From Escherichia coli (lineage in GTDB: Bacteria > Pseudomonadota > Gammaproteobacteria > Enterobacterales > Enterobacteriaceae): DNA of 64,000 nt. The stretch's first letter is position 1; each line of letters starts with the position of its first letter. Below, piece after piece: positions 55,328 through 56,213 of the stretch. The stretch lies in NCBI RefSeq assembly GCF_003790525.1, contig NZ_CP033635.1. One strand, given 5' to 3'. A program made the translations under genes and the position numbers. The notes under the pieces are model-generated. The model worked only from the letters and a program-made list of their open reading frames with translations. It had not been told where the DNA came from and ran no database searches.

Positions 55328-55516
55328 TTAATTATCAATATCATAAATTTCGCCACCACATTCAATCGCAACACTATGATATATATGGAATTCTTTAACA
55401 ATTTCCTTAGAGCCATAATACCAACCTTCAAGAGGCGCTTTTGCGATTAATCCTTGTTTTATACGTGTTTGGTTACCAGTTGAAAACTGCGCTATCAACT
55501 CCGGATACTGACTCAC
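55328..55516 (-). pseudogene. Orphan HNH DNase toxin tip fragment 2, truncated by a premature TAA
   Basis: GTG-initiated 62-codon ORF (V)SQYPELIAQFSTGNQTRIKQGL...EIYDIDN*; the next frame-continuous codons read RIVTPRLHDEIHYRR*, i.e. the lost end of the HNH motif. Confidence 0.65.
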
Positions 55517-55682
55517 CTCCAGCCAAAGGGTATCGGTGAAAGCGGGAAATTGATAAAATAACCTAATGAGATTTCAGTATTTTACCTGTTTTTTAAGAGC
55601 ACCCACATTATTATTTTATGTTATTAACATCATCGCATTAGCCAGACGCGATGATGTTCCATATATAGTTTTATTATCTACT

Positions 55683-55973
55683 TTATTTAGAGTCTTTAAA
55701 CAAGGGTAGCCCCTGTGAACGCCGCCATTCTTTGACAATTTTCAGGATGTTTTCAGGTTCATCATCTCCCTTCTTTGCAGGATAGTAGATAAGATCGCTC
55801 ATCAACGGATGTTGTGTAATTCTGGTAAGATGTTCTTCTAGATCATCCCAATATTTGTCAAGCTCTTCCCCTTTTAATTGAGCGTTATCCCCGGTTGGAT
55901 TTGTAAACTCGCCAAGCAACTCAATGAATTCCCGCTCTGTGTAATCTTCTATTTTATTTTTAAAATCATACAT
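55683..55973 (-). CDS. Colicin-E9-type DNase immunity protein (Im9-like), copy 2
   Basis: 96 aa MYDFKNKIEDYTEREFIELLGEF...TQHPLMSDLIYYPAKKGDDEPENILKIVKEWRRSQGLPLFKDSK. Confidence 0.75.
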   Translation of the reverse strand: MYDFKNKIEDYTEREFIELLGEFTNPTGDNAQLKGEELDKYWDDLEEHLTRITQHPLMSDLIYYPAKKGDDEPENILKIVKEWRRSQGLPLFKDSK

Positions 55974-56213
55974 TTAACTATCTCCTGTAATAAATTTCAT
56001 CATGCAAATGAGGTGTGCCCTCCTTAAATTATCAATATCGTAAATTCCGCCACTATATTCAATCGCAACACGATGATATATGTGGAATTTTTTAACGATT
56101 TCTTTAGTGCCATAATGCCAACCTTCAAGTGGTGCTTTTGCGATTAATCCTTGTTTTATACGTGTTTGATTACCGCTTGAAAACTGCGCTATCAACTCCG
56201 GATACTGACTCAC
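55974..56213 (-). pseudogene. Orphan HNH DNase toxin tip fragment 1, 3' frameshift
   Basis: 79-codon ORF homologous to the Hcp-ET C-terminus up to DIDNLR, then out of frame (RRAHLICMMKFITGDS); the -1 frame reads ...HLHDEIYYRR*. Confidence 0.65.

What the first reader, a model, noticed from the sequence alone, without database searches (positions are those of the whole stretch)
55328..56213. Both orphan DNase toxin tips are disabled while their immunity genes remain intact
Orphan 2 ends at a TAA exactly at the Leu codon of DIDNLR; the following in-frame codons still spell RIVTPRLHDEIHYRR*. Orphan 1 carries a 1-nt indel so the same stretch reads RRAHLICMM..., while the -1 frame reads ...HLHDEIYYRR*. 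In both, the first His of the HH pair is Tyr (IYH versus IHH). The three immunity ORFs are full-length. This fits an immunity-gene reservoir kept under selection while toxin remnants decay, or possibly programmed frameshifting.
Basis: seen in the sequence. Interest (0 to 1): 0.75.

Follow-up and report, generated by a model that had tools for sequence, protein, structure and literature searches.

The report
Dead toxin stubs beside live immunity genes
Downstream of an E. coli type VI secretion DNase toxin gene sit two broken 3' toxin fragments, each followed by an intact immunity gene; this is an ordinary, already partly characterised "orphan immunity" array, not a frameshifting device.

Summary
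The window is E. coli SMS-3-5. Between aroP and pdhR lies an Hcp–Pyocin_S–colicin-DNase effector gene. It has the same gene layout as the tested UTI89 Hcp-ET3-4 locus. Three ~698-nt cassettes follow it.

Each orphan covers only the last 78 codons of the toxin. Both have Tyr at the metal-ligand His102 position. One has TAA straight after Asn118. The other has a 1-nt deletion plus Tyr at His131.

These lesions are not assembly errors. The TAA 60-mer is exact in 840 of 844 complete genomes that carry that orphan, and no TTA version was found. The deletion 61-mer is exact in 1004 of 1051 genomes.

Imm3 belongs to the type paired with a live toxin tip in other strains such as Nissle 1917. Imm2 is 84% identical to the partner of a live toxin in an uncultured Enterobacteriaceae. 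Immunity genes show pN/pS of 0.14–0.23.

Programmed frameshifting is not supported. The pattern matches known orphan immunity arrays. It is a modest, confirmatory finding.

The parts
56668..58449 (-). Full-length Hcp-ET effector gene (593 aa). Domains: Hcp aa 1-146, Pyocin_S aa 309-450, colicin/pyocin DNase aa 460-591. The H-N-H motif is intact: IHH...N...H...H.
   Evidence: ORF. NCBIfam TssD and T6SS DNase hits. Pfam PF05638, PF06958 and PF21431. PDB hits to the E9, E7 and AP41 DNases with residue mapping.
56671..56913 (-). Main toxin tip (WLEVSQ...HYRR, the last 81 codons). This is the segment that the orphans duplicate.
   Evidence: Homology with the orphans starts exactly at TGGCTGGAGGTGAGT.
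56381..56665 (-). imm1 (94 aa, type A). Colicin/pyocin DNase immunity protein, presumed cognate to the main tip. RefSeq gives the same protein accession (WP_000471928.1) in SMS-3-5 and in UTI89.
56214..56380 (-). Inter-cassette spacer 1. It contains a 10-bp hairpin (about 56327-56353) and a weak promoter-like match (56398 to 56371).
   Evidence: Fold. Promoter scan, where matches were no more frequent than in shuffles. Conserved between cassettes and strains.
55974..56222 (-). Orphan tip 1 (the frameshifted type). Lesions: His102 to Tyr codon at 56076-56078; 1-nt deletion at about 56019-56021; His131 to Tyr codon at 55990-55992 in the -1 frame; -1-frame stop at 55978-55980.
   Evidence: Derived from a live tip of the type seen in L011. 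The same deletion is exact in 1004 of 1051 genomes.
55683..55973 (-). imm2 (96 aa, type D), an intact orphan immunity gene. Its ribosome-binding site AGGAGA lies in the last codons of orphan tip 1.
   Evidence: It is 84% identical to P0035, which sits next to a live 594-aa Hcp-ET. pN/pS is 0.23.
55517..55682 (-). Inter-cassette spacer 2, a copy of spacer 1 with the same hairpin and promoter-like match (55700 to 55673).
55280..55525 (-). Orphan tip 2 (the nonsense type). Lesions: His102 to Tyr codon at 55379-55381; TAA at 55328-55330, directly after Asn118. The residual in-frame tail RIVTPRLHDEIHYRR ends at the stop at 55280-55282.
   Evidence: The TAA 60-mer is exact in 840 of 844 genomes and no exact TTA version exists.
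54984..55274 (-). imm3 (type B; 96 aa from the RefSeq start, or 98 aa if the ATG at 55280 is used), an intact orphan immunity gene.
   Evidence: It is the same type as the immunity gene immediately downstream of live tip B in JA0266, Nissle, AVS0096, SCU-484, TUM17543 and UPEC132. pN/pS is 0.14.
54927..54959 (-). Terminal hairpin followed by a U-run, the likely terminator of the array.
   Evidence: Read directly from the sequence. It aligns with the internal spacer hairpins.

Best explanation
**What it is.** The region is the distal part of an Hcp-ET3-4-type type VI secretion effector locus, inserted between aroP and pdhR. The full-length gene encodes Hcp + Pyocin_S + a colicin-type H-N-H DNase and is followed by its immunity gene. 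Behind it sit two further ~698-nt cassettes. Each cassette contains the last 78 codons of a toxin, an immunity gene, and a hairpin-bearing spacer.

**How it arose (inferred).** The cassettes are leftovers of earlier toxin-tip/immunity modules. Recombination at the conserved WLEVS junction inside the DNase domain displaced or duplicated them.

**Why the stubs are dead (shown).** They lack a start codon, the delivery domains and half of the nuclease fold. They also carry old, nearly fixed lesions:
- Tyr in place of metal-ligand His102 in both stubs;
- a stop codon straight after Asn118 in one stub;
- a 1-nt deletion plus Tyr at His131 in the other.

**What the immunity genes do.** They are kept intact (shown). 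They most likely protect the cell against DNase tips fired by other strains and relatives (inferred). Imm3 would protect against tip B, carried for example by Nissle 1917. Imm2 would protect against a D-type tip seen in an uncultured Enterobacteriaceae. Both may also add to self-protection.

**Why the stubs persist (inferred).** Their last codons (TAC AGG AGA) form the ribosome-binding site of the immunity gene. They and the spacer may also carry its promoter, though that is only suggested. Too little time has passed for them to erode further. Their homology drives unequal crossing-over that reshuffles or deletes cassettes.
For: **Architecture and domains.**

**Same gene layout as the tested UTI89 locus.** RefSeq gives the same imm1 protein accession in both strains. 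A review states that all three immunity copies neutralise the toxin (PMC6730261).

**Lesions mapped to E9 numbering.** The alignment gives the numbering. The roles of His102, 103, 127 and 131 come (bioRxiv 10.1101/2020.04.29.068437). Among 133 full-length representatives at <=50% identity, the His102 position is His in 131, Asp in 2 and Tyr in none.

**Population data.**
- The locus is present in 1058 of 5426 complete E. coli genomes.
- The TAA 60-mer is exact in 310 + 530 = 840 of 844 genomes, and the TTA version is exact in none.
- The deletion 61-mer is exact in 871 + 133 = 1004 of 1051 genomes.
- The same lesions occur in all sampled arrays.

**Live partners.**
- Tip B plus imm type B forms the main module in JA0266, Nissle and others.
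- A live 594-aa Hcp-ET lies directly upstream of P0035, which is 84% identical to imm2. The 3' DNA of that toxin is clearly the intact counterpart of orphan 1.
- An intact orphan identical in type to the window's main tip exists in JA0266 and Nissle. This fits displacement followed by decay.

**Selection.** pN/pS is 0.23 for imm2 (p = 6e-6) and 0.14 for imm3 (p = 1e-4). It is 0.48 for the orphan-1 tip. Polymorphism within the orphan-1 type is 7 nonsynonymous to 3 synonymous.

**Recombination.** In NR1441 the main gene is fused to the frameshifted orphan, leaving a tssD pseudogene plus imm type D only. Chimeric immunity proteins exist in the database.
Against: - Within E. coli, the few polymorphisms in the specificity part of the imm2 type are all nonsynonymous (5 to 0). 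Recent purifying selection is therefore not demonstrated. The low pN/pS values partly reflect time spent in live modules.
- The orphan-tip pN/pS of 0.48 is not clearly different from that of the live tip (0.37). The sample is only 66 codons.
- Expression of imm2 and imm3 was not shown. The promoter-like matches are no more frequent than in shuffled sequence.
- Protection by imm2 against the D-type toxin is inferred from 84% identity only. That toxin's host is not E. coli.
- The exosite segments of both orphans are A-like, not matched to their immunity genes. The history therefore involves more than simple displacement.
- The primary paper (Ma et al. 2017) could not be read.
Confidence: 0.8

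Rival explanations
1. Silent toxin cassettes for switching. In this reading the orphan tips are a reservoir of alternative toxin ends, as in CDI and Rhs orphan modules. Recombination into the full-length gene would change the weapon and its immunity together.
For: The orphans share the junction and ~90% identity with the main tip, which makes them good recombination substrates. An intact orphan exists in JA0266 and Nissle, and it equals the main tip of SMS-3-5 and UTI89, so switching or displacement has happened. NR1441 shows that main-to-orphan crossover occurs.
Against: For the two orphans in this window, any recombinant inherits Tyr102 plus a stop or a frameshift. The one natural recombinant found (NR1441) is a pseudogene. 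No genome among 844 has the stop repaired to TTA. No intact version of orphan 1 appeared in the protein search. The exosite segments no longer match the downstream immunity type.
Confidence: 0.1
2. Programmed recoding. A -1 frameshift in orphan 1 or stop read-through in orphan 2 would produce a small H-N-H peptide with a function.
For: The residual frames still spell ...HLHDEIYYRR* and RIVTPRLHDEIHYRR*. The deletion sits in TAAGGAGG, which is a tandem of rare AGG codons and resembles a Shine-Dalgarno sequence. From my own knowledge, such contexts can provoke ribosome slippage.
Against: - A -1 shift is required, but there is no X XXY YYZ heptamer.
- From my own knowledge, AGG-AGG favours +1 slippage, and the +1 frame ends after GHTSFA (see P0014).
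- Two stops close the -1 frame just upstream.
- The product would have Tyr at both His102 and His131, a state never seen in 133 full-length homologues.
- The only start is a GTG directly abutting GGAGG.
- The fragment lacks residues 1-54 of the DNase fold and any secretion domain.
- The conserved tail is explained by the immunity gene's ribosome-binding site.
Confidence: 0.02
3. Sequencing or assembly artefact. The stop and the indel would be errors in the SMS-3-5 assembly.
For: One genome (SCU-485) shows many frameshifts across the array. These look like long-read errors.
Against: The identical lesion-bearing 60- and 61-mers occur in 840 and 1004 independent complete genomes. They were also seen in every locus inspected, UTI89 and Nissle among them.
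Confidence: 0.01
4. Selected disarmament. The lesions would not be neutral decay. They would be favoured either because an open orphan tip is harmful, or because a dead tip turns main-to-orphan recombination into a one-step route to immune non-producers.
For: - Tyr102 is retained even in rare variants whose reading frame is open (P0001; APEC 16-1068).
- The lesions are nearly fixed.
- NR1441 is exactly such an immune non-producer.
- The orphan exosite is mismatched to its immunity gene, so a live recombinant could be self-toxic.
Against: The fragment lacks half the fold and a start codon, so it is unlikely to be toxic. An intact orphan is tolerated in Nissle-type arrays. Shared ancestry plus short divergence times explains the near fixation. 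Only 1 of ~1058 genomes shows the fusion.
Confidence: 0.07

Closest known systems
Hcp-ET3-4 / ETI3-4 locus of UPEC UTI89 (UTI89_C0121; Ma et al. 2017, Virulence, read only through the reviews PMC6730261 and PMC6099711)
   Same: Same chromosomal site, same gene order and same domain architecture. RefSeq gives the same imm1 protein accession in both strains. The same two orphan ORFs of 79 and 62 aa lie between three immunity genes. The review reports antibacterial activity and says all three immunity copies neutralise the DNase.
   Different: The reviews describe only 'three duplications of the cognate immunity gene'. They do not mention the interleaved dead toxin stubs. They also do not note that the three immunity genes are different types (58-65% identical), two of which match live toxins elsewhere. 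The window comes from a different strain (SMS-3-5) with minor allelic differences.
Orphan cdiA-CT/cdiI and Rhs-CT/rhsI modules (Poole et al. 2011; Koskiniemi et al. 2014; recalled from my own knowledge)
   Same: 3' toxin fragments plus an immunity gene are arrayed behind a full-length toxin gene. They begin at a conserved junction, lack initiation signals and delivery domains, and recombine with the main gene.
   Different: In CDI and Rhs the orphan usually encodes a complete, working toxin domain that can be reactivated. Here the junction lies inside the nuclease domain, so only its last 78 of 132 residues are copied. Two of the orphan types are also mutationally dead.
Orphan immunity gene arrays from sequential effector displacement in Vibrio cholerae T6SS clusters (Kirchberger et al. 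2017, as cited in PMC6730261)
   Same: Old immunity genes are retained after the effector is replaced. The array order reads as a history of replacements. The proposed benefit is protection from relatives.
   Different: The carrier is different (an Hcp fusion rather than cargo or VgrG-linked effectors) and so is the toxin family. Here the cassettes are also homogenised by recombination, so tip and immunity no longer match.
Colicin plasmids that carry a truncated colicin gene plus an extra or orphan immunity gene (bioRxiv 10.1101/2024.11.06.622277; from my own knowledge, the colE5 remnant with immE5 on ColE9-J and immE8 on ColE3-CA38)
   Same: The DNase and immunity protein families are the same. 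Heavily truncated toxin genes are maintained next to intact immunity genes across many isolates, and this is read as selection for protection.
   Different: The array here is chromosomal, delivered by T6SS, tandemly repeated and present in about a fifth of complete E. coli genomes. That study found only one DNase orphan immunity gene on plasmids.

Membership tests
Hcp-ET (specialised Hcp with C-terminal toxin), Hcp-ET3-4 type | N-terminal Hcp/TssD domain | tested here: met
   TIGR03344, 122.6 bits against a cut-off of 58.9. PF05638.
Hcp-ET (specialised Hcp with C-terminal toxin), Hcp-ET3-4 type | C-terminal Pyocin_S plus colicin-type DNase extension | tested here: met
   PF06958 at aa 309-450 and PF21431 at aa 460-591. 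E9, E7 and AP41 DNase hits at E about 1e-32.
Hcp-ET (specialised Hcp with C-terminal toxin), Hcp-ET3-4 type | Cognate colicin/pyocin immunity gene immediately downstream | tested here: met
   imm1 starts 2 nt after the toxin stop codon. Homologues carry PF01320. Im7 and AP41-immunity hits for the family.
Hcp-ET (specialised Hcp with C-terminal toxin), Hcp-ET3-4 type | T6SS-dependent delivery and antibacterial activity | not testable with these tools
   Reported for the identically organised UTI89 locus in a review. No T6SS cluster lies inside the window.
Colicin/pyocin H-N-H DNase (active enzyme) | His102, His103, Asn118, His127 and His131 present within a complete ~130-residue domain | tested here: not met
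   The main gene meets this feature. Both orphans fail it: Tyr at position 102; a stop after 118, or a frameshift plus Tyr at 131; and only residues ~55-132 are present. Tyr at position 102 was seen in 0 of 133 full-length homologues.
Colicin/pyocin DNase immunity protein (Im family, PF01320) | ~85-98 aa protein with the conserved helix III motif (S/G)DLI(Y/F)YP and a variable helix II | tested here: met
   imm2 matches AP41-immunity, Im7, Im8 and Im9 at E 1e-20 to 1e-13. The motif is conserved in all three immunity genes.
Orphan toxin-tip/immunity cassette array (CDI/Rhs-like) | Lies downstream of a full-length toxin/immunity pair, and starts at a junction shared with the main gene | tested here: met
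   Homology starts at TGGCTGGAGGTGAGT (WLEVS) in all cassettes and strains.
Orphan toxin-tip/immunity cassette array (CDI/Rhs-like) | The orphan encodes an intact toxin domain that can be reactivated | tested here: not met
   Both window orphans are broken, and NR1441 shows that fusion gives a pseudogene. An intact orphan of another type does exist in Nissle-like arrays.
Orphan toxin-tip/immunity cassette array (CDI/Rhs-like) | Evidence of recombination between the main gene and orphans | tested here: met
   The NR1441 fusion. Arrays with 1 to 4 immunity genes. Chimeric immunity proteins.
Programmed -1 ribosomal frameshift site | X XXY YYZ slippery heptamer, an open -1 frame across the site, and a functional trans-frame product | tested here: not met
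   No heptamer is present. The -1 frame has two stops four codons upstream of the needed shift. The product lacks two catalytic His residues.

The most novel reading that the evidence does not exclude
The dead stubs would be maintained functional DNA rather than mere wreckage. They would supply the ribosome-binding site and perhaps the promoter for the orphan immunity genes. They would also serve as homology arms. Because they are pre-inactivated, a single crossover with the full-length gene would switch a cell from armed producer to immune non-producer, as in NR1441. That would make the array a built-in, heritable 'disarm but stay protected' switch.
Probability: 0.1. Interest if true: 0.5.

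Novelty: new member of a known kind. Interest (0 to 1): 0.3.

Why it matters
About one in five complete E. coli genomes carries this array, including ST131-type strains, UTI89 and Nissle 1917. The array records past toxin replacements. It also predicts which strains should resist which Hcp-borne DNase. For example, SMS-3-5 and UTI89 should resist the Nissle-type tip B through imm3.

That prediction is useful for understanding gut competition and probiotic antagonism. It also bears on genome annotation, because RefSeq currently calls the dead stubs "hypothetical protein". It does not reveal a new mechanism.

Tried and rejected
- The primary paper (Ma et al. 2017) is not held under its DOI, PMID or PMC id. 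I used reviews instead.
- The protein search with a repaired orphan-1 tip gave only 31 candidates, all short E. coli fragments and no full-length toxin. It did reveal open-frame variants that still carry Tyr102.
- A degenerate DNA pattern for the imm2-specific motif EFTNPTGD found nothing in the species-representative genomes.
- The proP flank of the live D-type locus has no megablast match in E. coli. An exact protein look-up named its source only as an "Enterobacteriaceae bacterium" metagenome-assembled genome.
- Literature searches using H102/H127 and His544 numbering returned noise or nothing. A pyocin S8 preprint supplied the residue roles.
- The promoter and terminator scan was no better than shuffled sequence. 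The whole-spacer fold was not exceptional, with a z-score of -1.18.
- I rejected programmed frameshifting, assembly error and a working silent-cassette role for these two orphans. The reasons are given under the rival explanations.
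Full report
**Where the window comes from.** The window matches the E. coli SMS-3-5 chromosome at 100% identity. The finding lies in an island between aroP and pdhR, in otherwise core genome. No T6SS cluster is present in the window.

**Checking the observation.**
- A 593-aa ORF on the minus strand (56668-58449) is followed by three short ORFs of 94, 96 and 98 aa. Two ORFs of 79 and 62 aa lie between them.
- Orphan 2 reads ...GEIYDIDN, then TAA at 55328-55330, then RIVTPRLHDEIHYRR in the same frame.
- Orphan 1 reads ...DIDNLRRAHLICMMKFITGDS* in frame 0. 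Its -1 frame reads KEGTPHLHDEIYYRR*, but two stops close that frame just upstream.
- The DNA alignment shows a 1-nt gap after TTA AGG A.
- Both orphans have FHIYH where the main gene has FQIHH.
- The three units form a ~698-nt tandem repeat.

**What the genes are.**
- The long protein has an Hcp/TssD domain, a Pyocin_S domain and a colicin/pyocin DNase domain.
- Its last 134 residues align along their whole length with the colicin E9 and E7 and pyocin AP41 DNases at E about 1e-32.
- That alignment fixes the E9 numbering. The IHH pair is His102-His103. The Asn of DIDN is Asn118. RLH is His127 and EIH is His131.
- A pyocin S8 preprint summarises the residue roles. His102 and His127 always bind the metal. 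His103 is the general base. His131 helps catalysis and can also bind metal.
- The short ORFs belong to the colicin/pyocin immunity family. imm2 matches AP41-immunity, Im7, Im8 and Im9, and its homologues carry PF01320.
- UTI89 has the same gene order. RefSeq gives the same imm1 protein accession in both strains, and the same 79-aa and 62-aa ORFs lie between three immunity genes.
- UTI89_C0121 is the published Hcp-ET3-4. A review says it is antibacterial. It says the gene is followed by three duplications of the immunity gene, all of which neutralise the toxin.

**What the orphans are.**
- Homology with the main gene starts sharply at TGGCTGGAGGTGAGT (WLEVS). Each orphan therefore covers only the last 78 of 593 codons, which is roughly residues 55-132 of the nuclease domain.
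- The only start codon is a GTG directly abutting GGAGG.
- The stubs were thus never independent genes.
- Orphan 1 has three lesions relative to a live relative (described below). Orphan 2 has two.
- In 133 full-length representatives of this DNase family, clustered at <=50% identity, the His102 position is His in 131, Asp in 2 and Tyr in none. Tyr is therefore a lesion, not a tolerated variant.

**Population survey.**
- The locus is present in 1058 of 5426 complete E. coli genomes.
- A 60-mer centred on the TAA occurs in 844 genomes. It is exact in 310 genomes.
- A one-SNP variant of that 60-mer, still carrying TAA, is exact in a further 530 genomes.
- The same 60-mer with TTA in place of TAA is exact in none.
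- A 61-mer spanning the deletion is exact in 871 genomes.
- A one-SNP variant of that 61-mer is exact in a further 133 genomes, out of 1051 that have any match.
- The other variants I inspected also carry the deletion.
- Assembly error is excluded. Both lesions predate the spread of the array across lineages as different as SMS-3-5, UTI89, Eco-15 and Nissle.
- Rare variants have an open reading frame but keep Tyr102 (P0001; APEC 16-1068).

**Live partners of the orphan immunity genes.** Eleven further loci with readable arrays were compared with the window's. Together they show three live main tips:

| Main tip | Example strains | Immunity type that follows |
|---|---|---|
| A | SMS-3-5, UTI89, APEC 16-1068 | A |
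| B | JA0266, Nissle, AVS0096, SCU-484, TUM17543, UPEC132 | B |
| C | Eco-15, 736 | A |

- The window's imm3 is type B. Its pN/pS against the cognate copy in JA0266 is 0.14 (p = 1e-4).
- The 3' end of orphan 2 is nearly identical in DNA to the 3' end of live tip B. Live tip B has TTT where orphan 2 has TAA.
- No E. coli main gene was found with a working D-type tip.
- However, P0035, which is 84% identical to imm2, lies directly downstream of a live 594-aa Hcp-ET at a proP locus.
- That toxin ends ...FQIHHQVAIEDGGEVYDIDNLRIVTPHLHDEIHYRR. Its 3' DNA is plainly the intact counterpart of orphan 1.
- Its host is not E. coli. The source record names it only as an Enterobacteriaceae bacterium metagenome-assembled genome.
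- pN/pS for imm2 against that partner is 0.23 (p = 6e-6). For the orphan-1 tip it is 0.48, and for the live main tip 0.37.
- Polymorphism within the orphan-1 type is 7 nonsynonymous to 3 synonymous.

**Caveats on selection.**
- Within E. coli, the few polymorphisms in the specificity part of the imm2 type are all nonsynonymous.
- The low long-branch ratios partly reflect time spent in live modules.
- The 66-codon tip comparison has little statistical power.

**Recombination.**
- Arrays carry between one and four immunity genes.
- JA0266 and Nissle carry an intact orphan of the type that is the main tip in SMS-3-5 and UTI89.
- In NR1441 the main gene has crossed over with the frameshifted orphan. 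The result is a tssD pseudogene followed only by imm type D.
- Chimeric immunity proteins are present in the database.
- The exosite-coding part of both orphans resembles tip A, whichever immunity gene follows. The stubs have therefore been homogenised and are no longer cognate to their neighbours.

**Why the stubs persist.**
- The last toxin codons, TAC AGG AGA, form the Shine-Dalgarno sequence of each immunity gene. They lie 5 to 8 nt upstream of its ATG (read directly from the sequence).
- In another Enterobacteriaceae locus, only the last 15 tip codons survive in front of a second immunity gene.
- A promoter-like match sits at the start of each spacer, but such matches are no more frequent than in shuffled sequence.

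**Programmed frameshifting.**
- A -1 shift is required, and no slippery heptamer is present.
- The -1 frame is closed four codons upstream of the point where the shift would have to occur.
- From my own knowledge, the tandem AGG AGG would favour +1 slippage. The +1 frame ends almost at once (see P0014).
- Any product would lack two catalytic His residues and half of the fold.

I reject this reading.

**Comparison with what is known.**
- The locus is the Hcp-ET3-4 system.
- The pattern of dead toxin remnants next to retained immunity genes matches three known cases. These are orphan immunity arrays made by effector displacement, truncated colicin genes with orphan immunity genes on plasmids, and CDI/Rhs orphan modules (from my own knowledge).
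- It differs from CDI/Rhs orphans in two ways. The junction lies inside the enzyme domain, and these two stubs cannot be reactivated.
- The reviews I could read describe only "three duplications" of the immunity gene. New here are the dead stubs, the distinct immunity types and their live partners. These additions are incremental.

**Verdict.** The reservoir interpretation is supported and the frameshifting alternative is not. This is a new member of a known kind, of modest interest.

Noticed in passing
window 56327-56353 and about 55629-55655 (minus strand); terminal copy at 54927-54959: Every cassette spacer carries a conserved 10-bp hairpin (CAUCAUCGCAU / AUGCGAUGAUG) with no U-run. The last cassette has a related hairpin followed by a U-run, which is probably the array's terminator. 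The internal copies may be leaky terminators or RNA processing sites.
   Followed up: partly
L018 (E. coli NR1441, NZ_AP040215.1) 2316-4391: The full-length Hcp-ET gene has recombined with the frameshifted orphan. This deleted all intervening cassettes and left a tssD pseudogene plus one immunity gene. The strain is a natural immune non-producer.
   Followed up: yes
L015 and L016, about 4292-4720 (uncultured Enterobacteriaceae, rsmI-side locus): A related Hcp-ET locus has a second immunity gene preceded by only the last 15 toxin codons (IIVTPRLHDEIHYRR). This suggests that the ribosome-binding-site-bearing end is the minimal retained stub.
   Followed up: partly
L010 (E. coli Z22-2) 3154-5580: An IS1 insertion truncates the Hcp-ET gene, and the immunity array is absent from this position. 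The IS1 abuts a partial htrE, which suggests an IS-mediated rearrangement.
   Followed up: no
L008 (E. coli SCU-485) 735-2412: All three immunity genes are annotated as frameshifted and the tips are broken at new places. These are probably long-read indel errors rather than real decay.
   Followed up: no
window 56016-56030 (minus strand): The 1-nt deletion of orphan 1 lies in TAAGGAGG. This is both a tandem of rare AGG Arg codons and a strong Shine-Dalgarno-like sequence, about 15 nt upstream of an in-frame ATG ATG.
   Followed up: partly
proteins P0033, P0038, P0042, P0046: The database contains immunity proteins that are clean chimeras of types A, B and D. Recombination breakpoints therefore also fall inside the immunity genes.
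   Followed up: no
window 55328-55516 and 55974-56213; RefSeq loci ECSMS35_RS26015 and ECSMS35_RS00615: RefSeq annotates the dead stubs as 'hypothetical protein' (in some other genomes as 'pyocin-S2/colicin E7-DNase domain-containing protein') starting at an internal GTG, not as pseudogene fragments.
   Followed up: yes
L003 and L005 main module (Eco-15 type), compared with window 56381-56913: Main tip C has a clearly different exosite sequence from tip A, yet it is followed by an almost identical type A immunity gene. One immunity type may therefore serve two toxin tips, or the pairing may have been reshuffled recently.
   Followed up: no
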